Assembly: GCA_018060905.1 (NCBI GenBank)
Contig: JAGOVD010000001.1
Location: forward strand, 1-50,365
DNA: 50,365 bases
From: Minisyncoccota bacterium
GTDB lineage: Bacteria; Patescibacteriota; Minisyncoccia; Phycocordibacterales; UBA9973
Direction of reading: 5' to 3'
Part shown: positions 6,189 through 20,992 of the stretch, piece after piece
Position numbering within the stretch: the stretch's first letter is position 1
Layout: the number at the start of each line of letters is the position of its first letter
Translations under genes and position numbers: made by a program
Notes under the pieces: generated by a model
What the model was told of the DNA's origin: nothing
What the model saw: only the letters and a program-made list of their open reading frames with translations
Database searches by the model: none

Positions 6189-6488
6189 AAATATAAAAAC
6201 TAGCTTATAAAGGCTAGACGGGGTATCTGTAGATGCACAGAACCCCGCGCCAGCTCGGACTTGCGTCCACATACCAGTTTCCCGATATGACCCAACGAAG
6301 AGTAAGCTGAACGCGGGGTTCAGTATCTTCGTTGGGATTTGCGACCATATCCTTTATTTCCAAAGGGGTTAGGTCGACTAATATTTAGTTGTAGCGAAAT
6401 AGTACCATTTTGACCGATACTATTCTAGGACATTGTATCGCAGTATCACTGGATCACAGAGGAAGTTACCAACAGCTTATTTTTGAAT

Positions 6489-13916: not shown

Positions 13917-14402
13917 TTATAAAAACGAAATAGATCTCTCTACTATCCTGTTTCCTATATCTCCCCATTTTAAATATTCTTTATAATCTTCAGGAGTAAC
14001 TAGTTTTATTTCCACAATATCCCCCATAGGATCGCCGAGAAATGGACCGAGTGGCTTAACTACACACATGTATCTGAGTTGATATTTGAAACTTTGATCT
14101 TTCATATCTATCACCTTTTGATATCCTATTGGTTTAAATGAAAGTATTTCCATATTTGATTCTTCTTGTATTTCCCTTCTTAAGGATTGCTCAAATGATT
14201 CACCTTCTTCAATAGTTCCGCCAATGAGGCAATATTCTTTTCTTCCTCCACTATATCCAAAAACTATTTTTCCATCACAAAAACAAACTCCATATGTTTG
14301 AGTGCATTTCGTTTTATCTAAATGATCAAAGGAGTCTGCGTCGGTATACTCAAAGATGAATGTATTTCCTTTGTGATCTGTGTAAGTGTTAGCTAACTGC
14401 AT
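13917..14402 (-). CDS. NUDIX hydrolase
   Basis: Nudix box GGTIEEGESFEQSLRREIQEESN (G-x5-E-x7-REUxEExGU pattern). Confidence 0.85.
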   Translation of the reverse strand: MQLANTYTDHKGNTFIFEYTDADSFDHLDKTKCTQTYGVCFCDGKIVFGYSGGRKEYCLIGGTIEEGESFEQSLRREIQEESNMEILSFKPIGYQKVIDMKDQSFKYQLRYMCVVKPLGPFLGDPMGDIVEIKLVTPEDYKEYLKWGDIGNRIVERSISFL

Positions 14403-14730
14403 TTTTATATTGTAGCAAATTTTAACACAGCTCGGGCTAACTCAAACCCTACACCGTGTCACATATTAACCCCTCCTGGTCCTTCGATACTAAACTAAAC
14501 TGCTACCAACAAAGAGCTCGAACCATACCATCCGTATTGGCAGGATGAGGGTACTATTGATGCTGGCGTACCAGAGAGATACTCTAATTCATTAGAAGAG
14601 CTTTCTCGAAATTCTATCGCACGGTATCTAATGAAAAAAGTGGCTTAAGCCAGGTTCGATTCTCAAAAGGGTGCTAAAAATGGCAACCTAAAAAACCCTT
14701 TAAATTGAAGCTTCTCGTGCTAGCACGAGT

Positions 14731-14805
14731 TGGTGACCCTACGGAGAATCGAACTCCGATTTAAAGCTTGAAAAGCTTCTGTCCTAACCGTTAGACGATA
14801 GGGCC
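14731..14805 (-). tRNA. tRNA-Glu (anticodon UUC), CCA encoded
   Basis: Hand-folded cloverleaf: GGCCCTA acceptor, GTCT/GGAC D stem, GAAGC-TTTTCAA-GCTTT anticodon arm, CGGAG-TTCGATT-CTCCG T arm, TAGGGTC-A-CCA. Confidence 0.9.
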
Positions 14806-14889: not shown

Positions 14890-15372
14890 CTAGTTCTTCC
14901 TTTCAGTAAAAGGGTCTTCGACGCGATATGTTCTGATCCTGCCATTTACTGTAACAGCGAACAAATGCTGTTCCTTCTGGAGTAAGGGGTCATGATAATA
15001 GATATCATTCTTACCTTCAAAACATTCATTTTTTAAGAAATTGTACACTGCCTGCGGAACAATATTCCATACCACAAAACGATTTTGTAATTCTTTGATT
15101 TTTTCCCAATACCCGAAAATATTTTTTGGGGACTGGTCTTCATCAATAGAAAATACAGAAAATACCAAGGCTTTCTTTTTGATCAACGTTTTACCTTCGG
15201 CTGCGGTAACTAGTATACGATGTGGAACTCTTTGCTCTAAAAGAGCAATACCTGCGAAAGATTCTTCGCGAGCTTTGTTTGGAATAATGTGTCTGTCTTT
15301 TGCCCCATAAATGATAGGGAAAAAAGCCATTGAAGCATCTGTAAGAAGAAGGGGGTTAGTTTGAAAGGACAT
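14890..15372 (-). CDS. hypothetical protein (160 aa) between two tRNA genes
   Basis: Clean ORF with its own terminator. No recognisable motif. Confidence 0.5.
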   Translation of the reverse strand: MSFQTNPLLLTDASMAFFPIIYGAKDRHIIPNKAREESFAGIALLEQRVPHRILVTAAEGKTLIKKKALVFSVFSIDEDQSPKNIFGYWEKIKELQNRFVVWNIVPQAVYNFLKNECFEGKNDIYYHDPLLQKEQHLFAVTVNGRIRTYRVEDPFTERKN

Positions 15373-15487: not shown

Positions 15488-15561
15488 GCGCGGTTAGCTC
15501 ATATGGTTAGAGCGCAGCATTGACATTGCTGAGGTGAGAGGTTCGATCCCTCTACCGTGCA
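15488..15561 (+). tRNA. tRNA-Val (anticodon GAC)
   Basis: Hand-folded: GCGCGGT acceptor, GCTC/GAGC D stem, CAGCA-TTGACAT-TGCTG anticodon arm, AGAGG-TTCGATC-CCTCT T arm, ACCGTGC-A. Followed by CC but no complete CCA. Confidence 0.9.
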
Positions 15562-15576
15562 CCCGTTTAAAAATGA

Positions 15577-15602
15577 GCCCGTTCACACGGGCAATTTTTA
15601 TT
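15577..15602 (+). terminator. intrinsic terminator after tRNA-Val
   Basis: GCCCGT-TCAC-ACGGGC followed by AATTTTTATT. Confidence 0.65.
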
Positions 15603-15745
15603 GGGTGCACGGTAAGCAGGCAACCTGCGTTGCCTGCGTGAGGGAGCGAACGCCGGAGTCATGTTTCTTCAGCAGAAGAAACAGACGAGGCGGTGCCCAG
15701 CCCGAACTGCGCGACTGGCGCAGTGAGAGGCGAGGGAGATCCCTA
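15603..15745 (+). ncRNA. candidate structured RNA, family unassigned (GC-rich multi-hairpin element 1)
   Basis: Sharp local GC rise. Perfect hairpins at 15616-15637 (9 bp), 15663-15682 (8 bp, nested in CGCC/GGCG) and 15706-15724 (7 bp). It starts with the exact complement of the tRNA-Val 3' end. Strand is inferred only from the upstream terminator context. Confidence 0.4.
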
Positions 15746-15805
15746 CTTAGTGACTAGTGACCACAAAGTTTAAAATTTCAAGTCGAAGGCGATCCCTCTA
15801 TAATA

Positions 15806-15838
15806 TAAAAAGGGGCATTACCAAACGGTAATGCCCCT
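15806..15838 (-). terminator. strong orphan terminator on the minus strand
   Basis: 12-bp perfect stem AGGGGCATTACC-AAAC-GGTAATGCCCCT. The T-run lies on the minus-strand side. There is no minus-strand ORF of 60 aa or more upstream of it. Confidence 0.55.
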
Positions 15839-16037
15839 GTACTTACTAGCTCCCCAGCTAGTTTTAAACCCCACCTCGTGTCCTATCCAAAACAATATGT
15901 TGTTATCAAAAGATCGTTTTTTAAAAAAGGGTGTCCCAACAGAATTCTTTTTTCTCGTATTTTAGAAAACTATCGGGAGCACCCTTTTATCCAAATATCC
16001 GTTAAACTCTGCACCCATCGTAGCACCTTTTGCAGTA

Positions 16038-16076
16038 TTGTCAACTTTTGACTCTAGAAGATCTTTCCCGTAGTAT
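16038..16076 (+). promoter_or_regulatory. promoter with -35 embedded in the inverted repeat GTCAA-CTT-TTGAC
   Basis: TTGTCAACTTTTGACT, with -35 TTGACT (16048-16053), a 17-nt spacer and TAGTAT (16071-16076). A near-identical motif sits upstream of the next gene. Confidence 0.5.
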
Positions 16077-16093
16077 CAAAGAAAAAATTGCCT

Positions 16094-17266
16094 ATGAAGC
16101 AGTCTATGTTATTTGATTACCCAAAAACACGAACACATATTGATGTTCAAAATGGTAAAGAATTACCCTGGTATGAAAATACTATTTGCCCAAATCTCGA
16201 ATTCATTGCTGTTCCACACGCGTTATTGCTGGGTTCGCAAAGTAGATCTGAAGAATTACCAACTCTTTCTTGGGAAATAAAATTGAGACTTGTTAAACAA
16301 CTACTTTGGCCACTCAAAAAATATTCCCACGACAGTATTGAGCAACAAATTCATGTCTATCTCCAATCAGAATCACAGTGGCTTCGCAAAGATCACACAA
16401 AGCGTCTCAGGGCATTTAATCGAATGTCTGAAGATGAGTTTGTCGATCTCCTTGCGTATGGCGCATTTGAATTATCGAGACGAGCTACATCAATACGGTC
16501 GTTCAAACGGTCGCTTCGAAAACAGCTCCCGGAATCCTCTGATAAGCTCATGTTTTCTCGGCTCGGGAGGTATATCCTCAATGGAAGAGTTGATGAGCAT
16601 TGGTATCGGGATCTCACCAAAGAAATTACAGAATTGTTTCCTGAATTTGATCAGAAGCTTATCGCGTCACTCCTATCTATCACCTCAATCAGAAGTAGTC
16701 TCCCTACAAATATTGCAAAATTTTTTAAAGTACTACATCAATTTTTTGAAGAAAAAATTTACATGGTAGAAACTGGTAAAAAGGGACAAAAAATAAAGAA
16801 GGAGAGTATGTTCAAAGATGTACTTGATGCATCACTCGCCAATCTTGATTTACTAAAGAAAGGAGAATCACTGATTGATTCTGACAAGAAGAATGCACCT
16901 AAGATTCGGAGGTTTGCAGGAGCTATGGTGGGTGTTACCGAAGCAGTTGTTGCTGATATTTGGATTACACGAAGTTTTGGTTGCGACAACAAACGTCTCT
17001 ATAATGATAATTTTGTGAGTACCTCACCAACGCGGTCACTCTATGATGCTATCGAATGGTATTTCCAAGCACTTGGAGAATATATCAACAAGGAACCACG
17101 AGGTGTGTGTTCGATGGCGTGGTCTGGTATTAGATCGGAGACCAATACTGCTACGACTCGGTACTCTGATATTTTGCGCGGGCGGCTTGGTCACGGTATC
17201 TTTGAAGAGCAGTATGGGCAACTCATCGCCGTGTTGAAAAAAGGTATCAAATTTGAAGAAAGGTAG
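16094..17266 (+). CDS. hypothetical protein (390 aa), no recognisable domain
   Basis: ATG at 16094 (MKQSMLFDYPK). The ORF-track start at 16088 is a TTG codon. AT-rich gene with its own promoter and terminator. Confidence 0.6.
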   Translation: MKQSMLFDYPKTRTHIDVQNGKELPWYENTICPNLEFIAVPHALLLGSQSRSEELPTLSWEIKLRLVKQLLWPLKKYSHDSIEQQIHVYLQSESQWLRKDHTKRLRAFNRMSEDEFVDLLAYGAFELSRRATSIRSFKRSLRKQLPESSDKLMFSRLGRYILNGRVDEHWYRDLTKEITELFPEFDQKLIASLLSITSIRSSLPTNIAKFFKVLHQFFEEKIYMVETGKKGQKIKKESMFKDVLDASLANLDLLKKGESLIDSDKKNAPKIRRFAGAMVGVTEAVVADIWITRSFGCDNKRLYNDNFVSTSPTRSLYDAIEWYFQALGEYINKEPRGVCSMAWSGIRSETNTATTRYSDILRGRLGHGIFEEQYGQLIAVLKKGIKFEER

Positions 17267-17267
17267 T

Positions 17268-17296
17268 GTCCGGACAATATTGTGCCGGACTTTTTA
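17268..17296 (+). terminator. intrinsic terminator
   Basis: GTCCGG/CCGGAC stem followed by TTTTTATTT. Confidence 0.6.
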
Positions 17297-17315
17297 TTTC
17301 CTATTTTCCTCTATT

Positions 17316-17353
17316 TTGTCAACTTTGACCCACTCGAATTAATAGGAGACAAT
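17316..17353 (+). promoter_or_regulatory. promoter with the same GTCAA-CT-TTGAC motif
   Basis: TTGTCAACTTTGACC, with -35 TTGACC (17325-17330), a 17-nt spacer and GACAAT (17348-17353). Confidence 0.45.
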
Positions 17354-17393
17354 ACGTACAAAGCTCTATTACAATCACCTTAAACTAAATAAA

Positions 17394-18257
17394 ATGACAC
17401 TATTAAGCGATGAAATGCTTAATAGCATTTCATTTGAAACACTACAGTTCATCGAACCATTTTCTACGCAGTCTACTTTTTCTAATCAATACAAAGGGCA
17501 ACAAGTTTTCTTGGAGGGCGCAACAAAAAAACCAGGAATAATTGTTACTCGATATATTGATTATGTAGGAATCATGAGGTACAACTTCAACACCGTTGAA
17601 GCATGTCTCAACAGCGGTGCAAAAAGTATCTATAATTCTTTATTGAAAAATAAAGTTAAGAAGGTTGAATTTGCATTAGTCCCTACTCAAAAGAAAAATC
17701 ATTCTCGGATGTATAATCTTTTGAAGAGGCAATATTCTCGTATTAGACGAGATAGTCACTTTGAGATAGTAAAACCATGGTTAGAAGGAGAGCGGTCAGA
17801 CAACTTTCCTTTCAATGAGCTCACATGGAGAAGGCCGTTTATTGAATTTGAAGGTCATCGCCGCTCCTCATTCGGGGACTATGCTAATCGTGATGGATGG
17901 TACCTTATCAGAGAGTTTTTACCACTTGAAAATAAGATGATCAATGTATATGTCGGAAAAAGTATTAATATTATTTCGGACCGTATCCGGAATAAATTTT
18001 ATCCCAATCGACATATTTATTACGAGGAAATTCCTGGTGAAAGAGAATATCACATCACCGTTATTGAGATTCAAAAATCTATATTGTCACGCAATATAGT
18101 ATACAAAGACTTCATCAAAAGGTGTGAAGATACACTCATTGCAATTTTGGATCCGAGAGATAACACAAAGGGGAAAATCGTTACTTCTAGCGAAGAATGG
18201 TACGAAGGTGAGCCAGTAAAAAATTGGGAAGAAAAATTTCCCGTAAAAGCTTCTTGA
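17394..18257 (+). CDS. protein with a C-terminal GIY-YIG nuclease-like domain
   Basis: GWYLIREF...MINVYVGKSINIISDRIRNKF matches the GIY-(x10)-YIG...R pattern, with a later CEDTLIAIL (conserved Glu) and DNTKGK. The N-terminal ~165 aa are unassigned. Confidence 0.55.
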   Translation: MTLLSDEMLNSISFETLQFIEPFSTQSTFSNQYKGQQVFLEGATKKPGIIVTRYIDYVGIMRYNFNTVEACLNSGAKSIYNSLLKNKVKKVEFALVPTQKKNHSRMYNLLKRQYSRIRRDSHFEIVKPWLEGERSDNFPFNELTWRRPFIEFEGHRRSSFGDYANRDGWYLIREFLPLENKMINVYVGKSINIISDRIRNKFYPNRHIYYEEIPGEREYHITVIEIQKSILSRNIVYKDFIKRCEDTLIAILDPRDNTKGKIVTSSEEWYEGEPVKNWEEKFPVKAS

Positions 18258-18273
18258 AAAGGAGCTTTTTTTG
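18247..18273 (+). terminator. intrinsic terminator overlapping the stop codon and abutting tRNA-Ser
   Basis: AGCTTCT-TGAAA-AGGAGCT (one G-U pair) followed by TTTTTTT. Confidence 0.55.
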
Positions 18274-18360
18274 CGGAAAGGGAGGGATTCGAACCCTCGA
18301 TCAGGTTACCCCGATGTCACTTTTCGAAAGTGATGCATTCGACCACTCTGCCACCTTTCC
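18274..18360 (-). tRNA. tRNA-Ser (anticodon CGA), class II with a long variable arm
   Basis: Hand-folded: GGAAAGG acceptor, TCACT-TTCGAAA-AGTGA anticodon arm, 18-nt variable arm, GAGGG-TTCGAAT-CCCTC T arm, CCTTTCC-G. Confidence 0.9.
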
Positions 18361-18454
18361 AAATATACTTCGTATTTGTCATCCTCCGGAACGGTGACAT
18401 CGTGTTCGCCACCTTGCTCCGCTCGGATAAAACGCAAAGCAGTTTGCCTTTTAT

Positions 18455-18472
18455 CCACTCTGCCACCTTTCC
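18455..18472 (-). repeat. 18-nt exact duplicate of the tRNA-Ser 5' end
   Basis: CCACTCTGCCACCTTTCC at 18455-18472 is identical to 18343-18360. Identity stops inside the D-loop. Confidence 0.9.
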
Positions 18473-18488
18473 ATGTACTCACTTGGTT

Positions 18489-19430
18489 TTATTTACCAGT
18501 TTTCAGCCAAACGTACAAATCCTCGATGGCTTTGACGGCGTCGCCGGCTGCGATGTTGTTCTGGTGGTAGAGACCGTTGGTGCAGTCGCCAGCCGCCCAG
18601 ATACCCAACATCTTGGTGCGCTGATTCATCGAGTCTACAAAAATCTTGCCGTCTTGGGTGAGTGGGACGATGTCTTTCGCGAAACTCGTGCTTGGGATCT
18701 GGCCAATCTCGACAAAGACGCCACTTACAGGAAGCTCTGTTGCGTCAGTCGCATCCTTTTCTTTATACACAACCGCTGAGACAAATTGCTCACCTTTGAT
18801 TTCCATGAGCTCGATGTTGGTCTTGAGGGTGACGTTGGGGAGCTTGGCAACGTTGTCGACCGTGATTTGGTCCGCGCGATACTTTTCGCTTCGATGGAGG
18901 AGCGTCACATGCTCGGCATACTGTGAGAGTTGCAATACGGCTTCCAGAGCCGCGTTGCCACCACCAATGACCACAACCGGCATACCGGAGAAGAGGGGGC
19001 CGTCACAGGTCGCACAGTACATGATGCCCTTGTGCTCGAACTTGTCTGCGCCGGTGACTTCGAGTTTGCGGTGGCTTGAGCCCGTAGCGATGAGAACGCT
19101 TTTTGCAGTGAGTGGCTCTGGTGTACCATCTACAGTCACGAGGAATGTATCTGCAGTGTCTTTGCTCACTGCAGTGACCCGTTTGCCGAGCATGAGGGTG
19201 AGTGTGTGCTCAGGCTTCGCATATTCTTCGATATGAGCCTTGAAACTCTTGGCGAGGTCGGTCCCACTGATCTGGGGTGTGCCGATCCAGTTGTAGATGG
19301 TGTCTGAGACCGAGGATTGACCACCGACTTCTTCAGCGATGAGAAGTGTCTGGATGCGCTTGCGAGCTGCGTATACTGCCGCGGCACATGCTGCAGGGCC
19401 TCCACCGATGATGATGAGTTCGTAATTCAT
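18489..19430 (-). CDS. trxB: thioredoxin-disulfide reductase
   Basis: MNYELIIIGGGPAACAAAVYAARK (FAD GxGxxG), redox CATCDG, and a second GGGNAALE NADPH motif. Start set at ATG 19430 rather than the longer ORF-track start. Confidence 0.9.
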   Translation of the reverse strand: MNYELIIIGGGPAACAAAVYAARKRIQTLLIAEEVGGQSSVSDTIYNWIGTPQISGTDLAKSFKAHIEEYAKPEHTLTLMLGKRVTAVSKDTADTFLVTVDGTPEPLTAKSVLIATGSSHRKLEVTGADKFEHKGIMYCATCDGPLFSGMPVVVIGGGNAALEAVLQLSQYAEHVTLLHRSEKYRADQITVDNVAKLPNVTLKTNIELMEIKGEQFVSAVVYKEKDATDATELPVSGVFVEIGQIPSTSFAKDIVPLTQDGKIFVDSMNQRTKMLGIWAAGDCTNGLYHQNNIAAGDAVKAIEDLYVWLKTGK

Positions 19431-19696
19431 GACTTTGAGTATAGCAGGGTCGTTCACAAAATCGAAGTGTATTCTCAAAATGCACACATAAAAGCCTGCT
19501 GGCTTTTTGCTCTGCTCGGCTCAGTCAGCCTGCGCAAGGCATTTCTCGAGCACACTTCGATTTTGCTCACTCTTTTACTCGAGCGAAAAGCCAATGTATC
19601 GTTTTGCCGTCTTTCGCAAGACGACTGGTCTGAGAAGGAGCGATTTTTCAGCAGAAAAATACGCGACGGCAATAATGATACATTGGCTTTGAGCGA

Positions 19697-20869
19697 CTAC
19701 TTCTTGTTTCGTCGAAGAAACGCTGGGATTGCGCCAAAGTTATCGAGATCTTCATCAACACCTTCGGTGTCAGCGAGCTCTGCGTCCATGGGTTTGATTT
19801 CAGGTTTCTGTACCATTGGTTTTATTTCTTCGGATCGATCGCCATTAGCGGTATCTTGTCTGTTGAATAGTTCGCGACCACTTGGGCTAAAGAGCGTTCC
19901 TTTTTTGCCGCTATCGCTCGGGAAACCTGTCGCGATGACCGTGATTTTCATCTCACCCTTCTTGATGCGTTCGTCGAGGATTGTACCAATGATGACACGA
20001 GCATCTTTGTCGATAGATTCAGTGATGACCTTTGCAGCATCTTGGAACTCTGCCATGGTGAGGTCGTCGTTGGAAGAGATGGCAAAGAGGACACCCTTTG
20101 CGCCGTTGATGGAAATATCGAGGAGGGGAGAGTTGATGGCTTGGATCGCTGCCTTTTCAGCACGGCCGTCACCTGAAGCAAATCCAACACCCATGAGCGC
20201 AGTACCTGCGTCTGTAAGGACGCTTTTCATGTCGGCGAAGTCGACGTTGATGATACCAGGAGAGGCGATGAGCTCGGAGATACCCTCGACTGCTTGGCGG
20301 AGGACTTCGTCACATTTTGCAAATGCGTCTTTGAACGTCGTGTCTTTGCCAGCGATGGCGAGGAGGCGGTCGTTGGGGATGACGATGATCGCATCAACTT
20401 CCTTTTCAAGGTCTGCGATGCCTTGTTCTGCGATACGCATGCGTTGGTTGCCTTCAAAGAAGAATGGTTTGGTGACGACAGCGACAGTGAGTATTCCTTG
20501 CTCCTTTGCGGCTCGCGCAACAACTGATGCAGCACCAGTACCAGTGCCACCACCCATACCACAGGCGATGAAGACCATGTCAGCGCCTTTGACGGCATCT
20601 TGGATCTCAGCCTTGGTCTCTTCTGCAGCACGCGCACCGAGTTCTGGGTTCATACCTGCACCGAGTCCTTTGGTGAGGTTTTTGCCGAGGTGGATCTTTT
20701 TCTCTGCGAGTGAGTTGTGCAAATCCTGCACGTCAGTGTTCATCGCCACGAATTCAACCGCACGGACTTTGTTTTCCATCATGTGGTTTAGGGCGTTTTT
20801 ACCTGATCCACCAATACCAATAACTTTGATACGGGCTGCGGTTTCAATTTCGGGGATGATTTTTGCCAT
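19697..20869 (-). CDS. ftsZ: cell division protein FtsZ
   Basis: IKVIGIGGSGKNALNHM and the tubulin signature GMGGGTGTGA. Start placed at the ATG (MAKIIPE), since the ORF-track start at 20890 is GTG. Confidence 0.95.
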   Translation of the reverse strand: MAKIIPEIETAARIKVIGIGGSGKNALNHMMENKVRAVEFVAMNTDVQDLHNSLAEKKIHLGKNLTKGLGAGMNPELGARAAEETKAEIQDAVKGADMVFIACGMGGGTGTGAASVVARAAKEQGILTVAVVTKPFFFEGNQRMRIAEQGIADLEKEVDAIIVIPNDRLLAIAGKDTTFKDAFAKCDEVLRQAVEGISELIASPGIINVDFADMKSVLTDAGTALMGVGFASGDGRAEKAAIQAINSPLLDISINGAKGVLFAISSNDDLTMAEFQDAAKVITESIDKDARVIIGTILDERIKKGEMKITVIATGFPSDSGKKGTLFSPSGRELFNRQDTANGDRSEEIKPMVQKPEIKPMDAELADTEGVDEDLDNFGAIPAFLRRNKK

Positions 20870-20992
20870 ATGGTTTTTGTCCCTTTCCACGGGGAGTTAT
20901 TACTATAGACCATATACTAGCAGAACTGGCAAAGAGTGCAATGATACATTGACAATATAATTTTATATGCTAGAGTATAAAAAATAAAATTT

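What the first reader, a model, noticed from the sequence alone, without database searches (positions are those of the whole stretch)
16038..18273. tRNA-bracketed two-gene island: unknown 390-aa protein plus GIY-YIG nuclease under a shared operator-like promoter motif
Two AT-rich monocistronic genes lie between tRNA-Val and tRNA-Ser, each with its own terminator. Both are preceded by nearly the same 15-16-nt motif, TTGTCAAC(T)TTTGAC (16038-16052 and 17316-17330). In it the -35 hexamer forms an inverted repeat with an upstream GTCAA, which suggests common regulation. The second protein carries a GIY-YIG-like core (GWYLI...VYVGKSINIISDRIR...E) behind an unassigned N-terminal domain. The first has no motif I can name. 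A nuclease plus an unknown partner in a tRNA-flanked islet is a typical context for defence, toxin or selfish-element modules. Candidate novel system.
Basis: partly seen in the sequence, partly recalled or inferred. Interest (0 to 1): 0.65.

Follow-up and report, generated by a model that had tools for sequence, protein, structure and literature searches.

The report
Glycosylase-like plus GIY-YIG nuclease islet
Between two tRNA genes of a tiny-genome (CPR/Paceibacteria) bacterium sits an accessory two-gene insert, absent from its closest relatives, that encodes a phage-type protein resembling a DNA base-excision enzyme and a UvrC-type GIY-YIG DNA-cutting enzyme; it is a plausible but unproven DNA-targeting defence or repair module.

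Summary
Two monocistronic genes (16094-17266 and 17394-18257) lie between tRNA-Val and tRNA-Ser. Each has a sigma-70-like promoter and a terminator. The motif TTGTCAAC(T)TTTGAC occurs exactly twice in 50 kb, with 0 expected.

Gene B has a real GIY-YIG domain at its C-terminus. A 54-sequence family profile matches the UvrC nuclease domain (hhalign 94.6%), and Y170, Y186, R197, E245 and N257 are in place.

Gene A is not motif-free. It is a divergent DUF7178 protein, a domain otherwise found in actinophage proteins and giant phage "polyvalent" proteins. Several weak lines agree that DUF7178 resembles Ogg2/HhH-GPD glycosylase-AP lyases, with invariant K270 and D288 spaced 18 residues apart.

The islet is accessory. 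The closest relatives lack it, and in one the two tRNAs are 263 bp apart. Across related genomes the same site next to trxB carries A+B (7 loci), A+ParB-like (4) or a PD-(D/E)xK/Zn-ribbon/Toprim protein+B (about 7), so the pairing is frequent but not obligate. There are no PADLOC hits.

My best reading is a base-excision plus incision cassette, probably aimed at foreign DNA (about 0.4). Accessory repair is the main rival. I rate it a new variant of known kinds, of moderate interest.

The parts
15488..15563 (+). tRNA-Val(gac), the left landmark of the islet
   Evidence: ARAGORN and Rfam. In relative L034 this tRNA lies 263 bp from tRNA-Ser with no A or B between them.
16038..16076 (+). Gene A promoter. 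Palindrome TTGTCAAC-TTTTGAC (16038-16052) overlaps the -35 TTGACT (16048-16053); the -10 is TAGTAT (16071-16076).
   Evidence: A GTCAA-N(3-18)-TTGACT arrangement with a 16-17-nt spacer to a TA-rich -10 (TAGTAT in three loci, TAATAT and TACCAT in the other two) recurs upstream of A orthologues in L001, L002, L007 and L008. On the minus strand the same palindrome gives TTGACA-16-TGcTACGAT.
16094..17266 (+). Gene A, 390 aa: an N-terminal helical extension (about residues 1-150) plus a divergent DUF7178 core
   Evidence: There are 12 homologues at 35-96% identity, all from CPR bacteria. All 13 family members hit Pfam DUF7178 (best E 2.3e-6; the window protein scores 19.1 bits, below the 27-bit cut-off). 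The AF2 model has pLDDT 80 and pTM 0.80. The 13 best-ranked BFVD matches, at probability 0.92-1.00 (12 of them 1.00), are mostly segments of phage proteins of 670-1,385 residues, three of which carry names typical of polyvalent proteins, plus four shorter phage proteins.
16541..17149 (+). DUF7178 core of A (about residues 150-352), with putative catalytic Lys270 (codon 16901-16903) and Asp288 (codon 16955-16957)
   Evidence: K and D are invariant across CPR, actinophage and polyvalent-protein DUF7178 sequences and lie 18 residues apart. DUF7178 profiles hit Ogg2-type 8-oxoG glycosylase/AP lyases in the PDB (E 0.008-0.03), aligned through K, D and the C-terminal helix. Foldseek's top PDB hits are OGG1 but weak. 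Some phage homologues are annotated 'glycosylase' or 'N-glycosylase/DNA lyase'.
17268..17299 (+). Intrinsic terminator of gene A
   Evidence: Hairpin of -12.6 kcal/mol followed by UUUUUAUUU. An equivalent GC hairpin plus T-run directly follows the A stop codon in L001, L002, L005, L006 and L008.
17316..17353 (+). Gene B promoter. Second palindrome copy TTGTCAAC-TTTGAC (17316-17329); -35 TTGACC (17325-17330); -10 GACAAT (17348-17353).
   Evidence: This palindrome is not found upstream of B orthologues in other loci.
17394..17870 (+). Gene B N-terminal domain (about residues 1-159), function unknown
   Evidence: The domain is conserved through the 54-member family (G48, L17, F19, R166). It has no Pfam or PDB match. 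The AF2 model is poor (pLDDT 50) and predicts beta-beta-alpha-beta-alpha.
17871..18179 (+). Gene B C-terminal GIY-YIG nuclease domain (about residues 160-262): Y170 (17901-17903), Y186, R197, E245 (18126-18128), N257
   Evidence: 15 of 54 family members hit Pfam GIY-YIG and 3 hit GIY_YIG_2. hhalign against the T. maritima UvrC N-domain gives 94.6% (P 6.6e-8) over 82 columns. hmmsearch against the PDB ranks UvrC first (4.3e-7), then T4 endonuclease II. Conservation: Y170 52/52, G188 54/54, E245 54/54, N257 53/54.
18242..18272 (+). Intrinsic terminator of gene B, abutting the 3' end of tRNA-Ser
   Evidence: Hairpin of -11.3 kcal/mol followed by U7.
18273..18360 (-). tRNA-Ser(cga), the right landmark of the islet
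   Evidence: The same tRNA follows B in L001, L005 and L015. A 19-nt copy of its 5' end lies at 18455-18473.

Best explanation
What it is. The islet is an accessory two-gene DNA-processing cassette. It sits in a recombination-prone slot between a tRNA cluster and trxB-ftsZ-ftsA in a Paceibacteria (CPR) chromosome.

Protein A. It is a stand-alone, N-terminally extended member of the DUF7178 family, which is otherwise found in phages. It most likely adopts an Ogg2/HhH-GPD-like fold. I infer that it acts as a DNA glycosylase/AP lyase: Asp288 activates base excision and Lys270 forms the Schiff base.

Protein B. It carries an intact UvrC-type GIY-YIG nuclease domain behind an uncharacterised N-terminal domain.

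Proposed mechanism (inferred, not shown). A recognises and excises a non-canonical base, most likely a hypermodified base in invading phage DNA, leaving AP sites or nicks. B then incises at or near these lesions and turns base excision into lethal strand breaks.

Regulation. The two genes are transcribed separately. In this genome their promoters share a palindrome over the -35 hexamer, which could be an operator for common repression. The binding factor is unknown.

Shown: the gene structures, the GIY-YIG identity, the DUF7178 identity, the accessory and patchy distribution, and the partner swapping. Inferred: glycosylase activity, cooperation of A and B, and a foreign-DNA target.
For: - GIY-YIG identity of B.
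- A is homologous to DUF7178.
- DUF7178 resembles Ogg2/HhH-GPD. Two different profiles place Ogg2-type glycosylase/AP lyases among the top 7-11 of 177,635 PDB sequences, with the catalytic K and D aligned. Foldseek's top hits are OGG1. One family member hits Pfam HhH-GPD at E 0.008. hhalign against E. coli Nth aligns K120/D138 with K270/D288, but weakly. Depositors annotated phage homologues as glycosylases.
- The cassette is accessory. In a survey of 80 species representatives seeded with the window's FtsZ, 42 loci with at least 3 kb beyond trxB carry none of the four genes. The closest relatives (FtsZ 88-94% identical) carry none either, though four of these ten loci have under 1.3 kb of sequence beyond trxB. 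Empty sites exist in L034 and L031.
- Cassettes are shuffled at one site: A+B in 7 loci, A+ParB-like in 4, BIG+B in about 7. All four gene types are DNA-binding or nuclease-type, a pattern typical of conflict loci.
- A and B evolve faster than their neighbours, and discordantly. A is 40-61% and B 26-50% identical to the window proteins, against TrxR 57-61% and FtsZ 82-85%.
- Partial tRNA copies lie nearby, and an integrase lies 4 kb upstream in L001.
- HhH-superfamily glycosylases are experimentally shown single-gene antiphage defences (bioRxiv 10.1101/2025.10.29.685425; Brig1, PMC11078745).
Against: - No PADLOC model hits A, B or the alternative partners.
- The A-Ogg2 link rests on marginal E-values (0.008-0.03) and weak Foldseek scores (E about 0.7, TM 0.22-0.26). 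hhalign against hOGG1 found nothing, and against Nth only 1.6% probability. A profile of the CPR family alone finds nothing in the PDB.
- A and B each occur without the other, so cooperation is not required.
- The genes are separated by a conserved terminator and have separate promoters, unlike most two-gene defence operons.
- The neighbourhood has a repair and oxidative-stress flavour: NUDIX, TrxR, and an Ogt-like gene next to B in L017.
- The window protein B has Lys where most of its family has His (position 201).
- The AF2 model of B is unreliable.
- No phage or host data exist for these uncultured organisms.
Confidence: 0.4

Rival explanations
1. Accessory DNA-repair cassette acting on the cell's own DNA. 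A removes an endogenous lesion such as 8-oxoG or another oxidised or alkylated base, as Ogg2 does. B supplies the strand incision or end-cleaning step, an AP-endonuclease-like or UvrC/Cho-like role, in a reduced genome that may lack standard BER nucleases.
For: The closest structural and sequence analogues of A are 8-oxoG glycosylase/AP lyases. The GIY-YIG domain of B is closest to the repair nuclease UvrC. The neighbours include NUDIX (a MutT-like family), thioredoxin reductase and, in L017, an Ogt/Ada-type DNA_binding_1 gene directly upstream of B. The chromosomal position is fixed, with no mobility genes in the window. There are no defence-model hits.
Against: The cassette is missing from the closest relatives and from about 80% of surveyed species at this site. 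Partner genes are swapped (ParB-like, PD-(D/E)xK-Toprim). Outside CPR bacteria, the relatives of A found here are in phages, including polyvalent proteins. Divergence is fast and discordant. These are features of conflict genes rather than of a maintained repair pathway.
Confidence: 0.27
2. Two functionally independent accessory genes that merely share a recombination hotspot next to trxB. The A-B adjacency reflects the insertion site, not cooperation.
For: Each gene has its own promoter and terminator. A occurs with a ParB-like partner and B with BIG or alone. A and B divergences are discordant: for example, window versus L001 is 61% for A and 26% for B. The shared palindrome is not conserved upstream of B elsewhere.
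Against: Of 11 A loci with readable downstream sequence, all have a co-oriented DNA-binding or nuclease-type gene immediately downstream (7 B, 4 ParB-like) and none has anything else. Gene order and orientation are invariant. In this genome both genes carry the same rare promoter palindrome.
Confidence: 0.2
3. Remnant or domesticated piece of a mobile element, or a selfish nuclease gene. A phage or integrative-element fragment carrying a polyvalent-protein-type domain, or a free-standing GIY-YIG homing endonuclease, landed at a tRNA site.
For: DUF7178 is a module of giant phage polyvalent proteins and of small actinophage proteins. The site lies between tRNAs and has partial tRNA copies. An integrase lies 4 kb upstream of A in L001. 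GIY-YIG is a classic homing-endonuclease fold.
Against: The window has no integrase, no att-type direct repeats bracketing A-B, and no other phage genes. tblastn of A and B against 50,697 phage genomes finds nothing. The domain order of B (unknown domain first, then GIY-YIG) is the reverse of I-TevI/Seg-type homing enzymes. Both families are full-length with conserved catalytic residues across deep divergence, which indicates selection for function.
Confidence: 0.1

Closest known systems
UvrC/Cho-type GIY-YIG nuclease domain (Pfam PF01541; PDB 1ycz, 1yd6)
   Same: All signature positions and spacings agree. GxY170 matches UvrC Y19, Y186-V-G188 matches Y29-I-G31, R197 matches R39, and E245-x2-LI-x4-P-x2-N257 matches E76...N88. 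The profile-level match is 94.6% by hhalign and 4.3e-7 by hmmsearch.
   Different: The domain is C-terminal, behind a 160-aa unknown domain. There is no UvrBC-binding, Endo V or HhH region. Position 201 is Lys (His in most of the family, Tyr43 in UvrC). The window protein alone does not reach any Pfam threshold. The family is small, with 56 clusters at 50% identity among 1.84 billion representatives.
Ogg2/AGOG-type 8-oxoguanine DNA glycosylase/AP lyases of the HhH-GPD superfamily (PDB 9o00, 3fhf, 3knt, 3n0u)
   Same: Mainly alpha-helical. An invariant Lys lies 18 residues before an invariant Asp within a G-x-K-[TI]-x2-F ... [VI]-D-x-[WH]-x2-R segment, matching EndoIII K120/D138. A conserved C-terminal helix aligns as well.
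   Different: Similarity is marginal (E 0.008-0.03). A carries a 150-aa N-terminal extension and beta-hairpin inserts. No canonical Gly/Pro-rich loop is recognisable by eye. Activity and substrate are unknown.
Pfam DUF7178 (PF23802): small actinophage proteins and modules of giant phage 'polyvalent' proteins (Iyer et al. 2017, PMC5512222)
   Same: Homologous core. All A-family members hit the model. The A profile hits polyvalent ORFs at about 1e-11. Foldseek probability is 0.92-1.00 for the 13 best-ranked matches. WY, S, N, K, F, D, Y and W are invariant.
   Different: A is chromosomal, stand-alone and twice as long, and it is found in CPR bacteria paired with a nuclease-type gene. The window protein scores below the Pfam gathering cut-off.
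Glycosylase-based antiphage defences: Dag1/Dag2 (HhH superfamily; bioRxiv 10.1101/2025.10.29.685425), Brig1 (UDG-like; PMC11078745), and PabI-type restriction glycosylases (PMC4615327, PMC10273834)
   Same: A divergent glycosylase-like protein in an accessory, somewhat AT-rich, recombination-prone locus. The concept is the same: excising a base from foreign DNA as immunity.
   Different: The known systems are single-gene. Homology to Dag or Brig1 was not tested directly. Here a separate GIY-YIG (or ParB-like) gene always follows. No phage-protection data exist.

Membership tests
GIY-YIG nuclease superfamily (PF01541) | GIY and YIG motifs on two adjacent beta strands, 10-16 residues apart | tested here: met
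   G168-W-Y170 and Y186-V-G188. In the 54-member family, Y170 is 52/52, Y186 46/54 and G188 54/54.
GIY-YIG nuclease superfamily (PF01541) | Catalytic Arg about 10 residues after YIG, a metal-binding Glu, and a conserved Asn 12-15 residues after the Glu | tested here: met
   R197 (34/54; the others may be alignment slips), E245 (54/54) and N257 (53/54). The spacing is identical to UvrC R39/E76/N88. PDB mutant entries confirm which residues are catalytic.
GIY-YIG nuclease superfamily (PF01541) | Significant profile match to the family | tested here: met
   The window protein alone gets no Pfam hit. At family level, 15/54 members hit PF01541 (best E 2.2e-5) and 3 hit PF20815. hhalign gives 94.6%. 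hmmsearch against the PDB gives UvrC at 4.3e-7.
GIY-YIG nuclease superfamily (PF01541) | Alpha/beta sandwich fold and nuclease activity | tested here: inconclusive
   The AF2 model has pLDDT 50. Its secondary structure (beta-beta-alpha-beta-alpha) is compatible, but Foldseek finds nothing. Activity cannot be tested with these tools.
DUF7178 (PF23802) | Match to the Pfam model at the gathering threshold (27 bits) | tested here: not met
   Window A scores 19.1 bits (E 0.0013), covering only profile positions 113-191.
DUF7178 (PF23802) | Homology of the family to bona fide DUF7178 domains | tested here: met
   13/13 A-family members hit the model (best E 2.3e-6). The A-family HMM hits viral ORFs that carry PF23802 at 1e-11 to 1e-8. 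The 13 best-ranked BFVD Foldseek matches have probability 0.92-1.00. The joint alignment has 9 invariant columns.
HhH-GPD DNA glycosylases (Ogg2/EndoIII type) | Catalytic Asp following a helix-hairpin-helix, with a Lys 18-19 residues upstream in bifunctional enzymes | tested here: met
   K270 and D288 are invariant and 18 residues apart. They align to the Ogg2 K/D pair and to Nth K120/D138. This is motif-level evidence only.
HhH-GPD DNA glycosylases (Ogg2/EndoIII type) | Statistically significant sequence or fold match | tested here: inconclusive
   The best PDB hmmsearch E-values are 0.008-0.03, but Ogg2-type entries take 4-5 of the top 7-11 hits. Foldseek gives OGG1 at E about 0.7 and TM 0.22-0.26. 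hhalign gives 1.6% against Nth and nothing against hOGG1.
HhH-GPD DNA glycosylases (Ogg2/EndoIII type) | Base-excision or AP-lyase activity | not testable with these tools
   This needs enzyme assays and borohydride trapping.
Known anti-phage defence systems (PADLOC-DB 2.0) | Match of any component to a defence-system model | tested here: not met
   A and B get no hit at E<=1. Relatives, the ParB-like partner and BIG get only trivial hits (E >= 0.001, short HTH or Zn-ribbon stretches).
tRNA-targeted integrative island | Integrase plus direct att repeats (a partial tRNA copy) bracketing the insert, and an empty site in relatives | tested here: inconclusive
   Empty sites exist in L034 and L031. 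The window has no integrase and no repeat pair bracketing A-B. The partial tRNA-Ser and tRNA-Glu copies lie outside the pair.
Toxin-antitoxin module | Co-transcribed, usually overlapping small gene pair | tested here: not met
   The intergenic gap is 127 bp, with a terminator and a second promoter. The proteins are 390 and 287 aa.
GIY-YIG homing endonucleases (I-TevI/Seg type) | N-terminal GIY-YIG domain linked to a C-terminal DNA-binding domain, in a phage or intron context | tested here: not met
   The domain order is reversed. hhalign against I-TevI gives only 65%. tblastn against the phage collection finds nothing.

The most novel reading that the evidence does not exclude
A previously undescribed, modular two-gene immune system of CPR bacteria. 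A DUF7178 glycosylase recognises hypermodified bases in phage DNA. An exchangeable nuclease partner (GIY-YIG or ParB-like) then converts the lesions into lethal breaks. The same DUF7178 domain, carried in phage polyvalent proteins and actinophage genomes, would be the phage-side counterpart, for repair or counter-attack. This would give DUF7178 a function and show combinatorial cassette exchange at a dedicated chromosomal slot next to trxB.
Probability: 0.3. Interest if true: 0.75.

Novelty: new variant of a known kind. Interest (0 to 1): 0.55.

Why it matters
If the reading is right, three things follow.
- It assigns a testable biochemical function (DNA glycosylase/AP lyase) to DUF7178. This domain is spread through actinophages and giant phage polyvalent proteins and has no literature.
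- It adds a two-component, partner-swapping version to the newly recognised class of glycosylase-based antiviral defences.
- It would be one of few candidate immune or repair modules defined in ultra-small CPR/Paceibacteria genomes, whose defence repertoire is poorly known.

If the repair reading is right instead, the islet shows how reduced genomes patch base-excision repair with non-canonical nucleases.

Either way, the locus is a clean natural experiment. The same slot is empty in some relatives and carries three alternative cassettes in others.

Tried and rejected
- Direct Pfam, PHROG, NCBIfam and PADLOC scans of A and B gave only sub-threshold DUF7178 and phrog_3842 hits for A and nothing for B.
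- The A-family profile against the PDB gave no hits.
- An early B profile (5 sequences) against the PDB gave only a spurious interferon-gamma match.
- The AF2 model of B (4 sequences) was too poor (pLDDT 50). Its Foldseek hits, Y-family polymerase little-finger domains at E>0.5, were discarded.
- hhalign of the A family against E. coli Nth and against hOGG1 gave no usable signal on its own. The glycosylase link appeared only after phage DUF7178 sequences were added.
- I tested whether A is related to the N-terminal part of the 921-950-aa BIG protein, and whether B is related to the ParB-like partner. Neither is.
- tblastn of A and B against 50,697 phage genomes found no match.
- I considered the palindrome as an RNA hairpin or terminator and rejected it (-2.9 kcal/mol, z 0.25).
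- I considered the palindrome as back-to-back divergent -35 elements. This is plausible in the window and in L001, where a DUF6496 gene lies on the other strand. It does not fit L008, where nothing is there to transcribe.
- I looked for att-type repeats bracketing A-B and found none.
- The search for related loci with the 54-sequence B alignment failed because no block was conserved enough.
- Cluster look-ups gave no source names.
- A literature search for DUF7178 returned 0 papers.


Full report
**1. What is in the sequence**

ARAGORN and Rfam place tRNA-Glu at 14731-14805 (-), tRNA-Val(gac) at 15488-15563 (+) and tRNA-Ser(cga) at 18273-18360 (-). Between the last two lie two plus-strand ORFs:
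- A, 16094-17266, 390 aa.
- B, 17394-18257, 287 aa.

Downstream on the minus strand are thioredoxin reductase (18489-19487), FtsZ (19697-20890) and an ORF whose orthologues in relatives are FtsA.

The motif TTGTCAACN{1,3}TTGAC occurs exactly twice in the window, at 16038-16052 and 17316-17329. None of 100 shuffles had a match. Each copy overlaps a sigma-70-like promoter: TTGACT-17-TAGTAT for A and TTGACC-17-GACAAT for B. Each gene ends in a hairpin plus U-tract, of -12.6 and -11.3 kcal/mol.

- The second motif copy is 14 nt.
- The AT-richness is modest.
- About 475 bp with an unrelated structured RNA separate tRNA-Val from the A promoter.

**2. Protein B is a GIY-YIG nuclease**

The window protein alone hits nothing in Pfam, PHROGs, NCBIfam or PADLOC. 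The word-indexed search found only two or three relatives. An exhaustive profile search found 56 clusters at E<=1e-3, mostly 245-325 aa and matching full-length.

The evidence from 54 aligned members:
- 15 hit Pfam GIY-YIG (best E 2.2e-5) and 3 hit GIY_YIG_2.
- The family profile aligns with the T. maritima UvrC nuclease domain at 94.6% hhalign probability (P 6.6e-8, 82 columns). I verified that this UvrC sequence is identical to PDB 1ycz. The match to I-TevI is 65%.
- hmmsearch against the PDB ranks UvrC domains first (4.3e-7, 9.2e-6) and then T4 endonuclease II.

The catalytic map is Y170=Y19, Y186=Y29, R197=R39, E245=E76 and N257=N88, with the same E-x2-LI-x4-P-x2-N spacing as UvrC. Conservation in the family is Y170 52/52, G188 54/54, E245 54/54 and N257 53/54.

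Position 201 is Lys in the window protein, where most of the family has His (I-TevI H31; UvrC Y43).

The N-terminal 160 residues are conserved within the family but match nothing. The AF2 model built from 4 sequences is unreliable (pLDDT 50).

**3. Protein A is a divergent DUF7178 protein with a glycosylase-like signature**

Twelve homologues (35-96% identity) come from CPR/Paceibacterota assemblies. All 13 family members hit Pfam DUF7178. The best E is 2.3e-6, and the window protein scores 19.1 bits, below the 27-bit cut-off.

The AF2 model is good (pLDDT 80, pTM 0.80). In BFVD its 13 best-ranked matches have probability 0.92-1.00. Most are segments of phage proteins of 670-1,385 residues, and three of those carry names typical of "polyvalent" proteins. 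In IMG/VR the homologous domain sits inside ORFs of 865-1750 aa. One of them also carries LPD38.

A DUF7178 domain from such an ORF finds stand-alone actinophage proteins of 190-205 aa. These score 1e-57 to 1e-74 on PF23802. A few were annotated by their depositors as "glycosylase", "N-glycosylase/DNA lyase" or "endonuclease".

A joint alignment shows nine invariant residues. They include a Lys (K270 in A) exactly 18 residues before an Asp (D288) within G-x-K-[TI]-x2-F ... [VI]-D-x-[WH]-x2-R. E. coli EndoIII has the same spacing between K120 and D138, and hhalign aligns them in that register, though at only 1.6% probability.

Further lines of evidence:
- Two different DUF7178 profiles, one with and one without the CPR sequences, each place Ogg2-type 8-oxoG glycosylase/AP lyases (9o00, 9o01, 9o02, 3fhf, 3knt, 3n0u) among their top 7-11 hits out of 177,635 PDB sequences. 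The best E-values are 0.03 and 0.008. The alignments run through the Lys, the Asp and a C-terminal helix.
- Foldseek of the A model against the PDB returns OGG1 in ten of its eleven best-ranked hits, but weakly (E about 0.7-1.7, TM 0.20-0.27).
- One A-family member hits Pfam HhH-GPD at E 0.008.

Each line is marginal, but they agree. I treat "Ogg2/HhH-GPD-like glycosylase/AP lyase" as the most likely fold and chemistry of A, not as established. A literature search for DUF7178 returned nothing.

**4. Genomic behaviour**

Looking up homologues in their contigs gives these arrangements:
- A followed by B, same order and orientation, in 7 distinct loci: the window, L001, L002, L005, L006, L019 and L023.
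- A followed by a roughly 400-aa ParB_N+HTH_ParB protein in 4 loci: L007, L008, L009 and L021.
- B preceded by a 921-950-aa protein ("BIG") in L015, L016 and L018. BIG has a PD-(D/E)xK-like motif, a CHC2 zinc ribbon and a Toprim-like region.
- B preceded by a small Ogt-type gene in L017.

In the loci long enough to show it, the cassette lies at the 3' end of trxB, upstream of trxB-ftsZ-ftsA. A tRNA-Ser(cga) often lies in between, and its position and orientation vary.

The organisms carrying these loci are about equally distant from the window organism (TrxR 57-61%, FtsZ 82-85% identity). A is 40-61% and B 26-50% identical, and the two rank the loci in discordant order.

An unbiased survey seeded with the window's FtsZ returned 80 species representatives. 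Their records are titled Paceibacterota, Nomurabacteria, "Minisyncoccia", or "Saccharibacteria" in some TPA records. The results:

| Content of the slot after trxB | Loci |
|---|---|
| None of the four genes, with at least 3 kb of sequence beyond trxB | 42 |
| BIG+B | 5 |
| A+ParB-like | 4 |
| Partial cassette at a contig end | 2 |
| A+B | 0 |

The ten closest relatives (FtsZ 88-94% identical) carry none of the four genes, though four of these loci have under 1.3 kb of sequence beyond trxB. Two of them show empty sites:
- In L034 (89%), tRNA-Val and tRNA-Ser are 263 bp apart.
- In L031 (92%), tRNA-Val lies about 350 bp from trxB.

The islet is therefore a genuine accessory insertion in a recombination-prone slot. 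Partial tRNA copies nearby fit this. However, the window has no integrase and no repeats that bracket A-B.

**5. Regulation**

The A promoter, including GTCAA upstream of and inverted relative to the -35 TTGAC, recurs in L001, L002, L007 and L008. The arm spacing varies from 3 to 18 nt. The proximal 120 bp are alignable between the window and L001.

The B-promoter copy is unique to this genome. It looks like a lineage-specific duplication of the A promoter core.

The palindrome is not a stable RNA hairpin. In the window it also forms a good minus-strand promoter (TTGACA-16-TGcTACGAT) facing a strong minus-strand terminator at 15838-15811. Back-to-back promoters are thus an alternative to an operator.

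A conserved terminator directly after the A stop codon in most loci shows that A and its partner are usually transcribed separately.

**6. Interpretation**

The firm results are:
- B is an intact UvrC-type GIY-YIG nuclease.
- A is a DUF7178 protein.
- The pair is an accessory cassette with exchangeable partners at a fixed slot.

The most likely mechanism is base excision by A followed by incision by B.

Four points favour a conflict (defence) role:
- Distribution is patchy, with shuffling among four DNA-binding or nuclease-type genes.
- Outside CPR bacteria, the relatives of A found here are all in phages.
- Divergence is fast and discordant.
- HhH-superfamily glycosylases (Dag1/Dag2) and Brig1 act as antiphage defences.

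Four points count against it:
- There are no PADLOC hits.
- The genes are transcribed separately.
- The pairing is not obligate.
- The neighbourhood has a repair and oxidative-stress flavour (NUDIX, TrxR, Ogt-like).

I give defence-type base excision plus incision about 0.4, accessory self-DNA repair about 0.27, independent neighbours about 0.2, and mobile-element remnant or selfish nuclease about 0.1.

**7. Novelty**

Both enzyme kinds are known, and glycosylase-based defence is known as a single-gene system. A DUF7178 glycosylase-like protein coupled to a GIY-YIG or ParB-like partner in CPR genomes is not described in the libraries or papers I could search. I rate it a new variant of a known kind, of moderate interest, pending biochemical tests.

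Noticed in passing
window 15600-15790 (+), with L007:795-945, L008:1100-1262 and L030:11469-11650: A GC-rich structured RNA candidate lies directly after tRNA-Val. It has three hairpins, an MFE z-score of -8.0, and 25 of 41 RNAalifold pairs with compensatory changes among three genomes. Rfam gives no hit at E<=1. In L030 its ends (GGGTGCACGGTA ... TACCGTGCAC) mirror the 3' end of tRNA-Val, which suggests a tRNA-derived or tRNA-like RNA. It travels with the tRNA cluster, not with genes A and B.
   Followed up: partly
window 15805-16044 (-): A minus-strand promoter-like site (TTGACA-16-TGcTACGAT, 16044->16017) shares the gene-A palindrome. A strong minus-strand terminator follows at 15838->15811 (12-bp stem plus T-run). 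No ORF of 25 aa or more lies fully between the predicted start and the terminator. This could be a divergent small RNA of about 200 nt (fold z-score -6.2). In L001 a DUF6496 gene occupies the equivalent position.
   Followed up: partly
window 18343-18361 and 18455-18473: An exact 19-nt direct repeat, CCACTCTGCCACCTTTCCA, occurs twice. One copy is the 5' end of tRNA-Ser(cga) and the other lies 112 bp away towards trxB. It is a partial tRNA copy or recombination scar, and it sits outside the A-B pair.
   Followed up: no
window 14654-14672 / 14736-14754 and 15553-15575 / 15592-15614: There are inverted partial copies of the 3' part of tRNA-Glu and of the 3' end of tRNA-Val. Relatives L031 and L034 carry similar partial tRNA-Val copies, and in L030 the tRNA-Glu/ORF/tRNA-Val segment is inverted. 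Together these point to repeated rearrangement at these tRNAs.
   Followed up: partly
window 6256-6375 (-): A LOOT RNA (Rfam RF03000) matches full-length at 82.7 bits, against a gathering score of 46.4.
   Followed up: no
L015:149-3001, L016:2136-4901, L018:1-915 (also L042, L045, L046, L060, L070): In some relatives a 921-950-aa protein replaces gene A upstream of B. It has a PD-(D/E)xK-like motif (GRIDIF...DWKF), a CHC2 DnaG-type zinc ribbon and a Toprim-like C-terminal region. It is uncharacterised and has no PADLOC match.
   Followed up: partly
L007:2624-3940, L008:6154-7338, L009:6057-7301, L021:5171-6361: In other relatives an atypical ParB-like protein of about 400 aa replaces gene B downstream of A. 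It has ParB_N with the GERRxRAH motif, a Cys-rich insert and HTH_ParB.
   Followed up: partly
window 14890-15372 (-) and 13917-14402 (-): A 160-aa ORF with no Pfam match lies between tRNA-Glu and tRNA-Val and is conserved in relatives (L007, L031). A NUDIX hydrolase lies just upstream and also recurs near the slot in L016.
   Followed up: no
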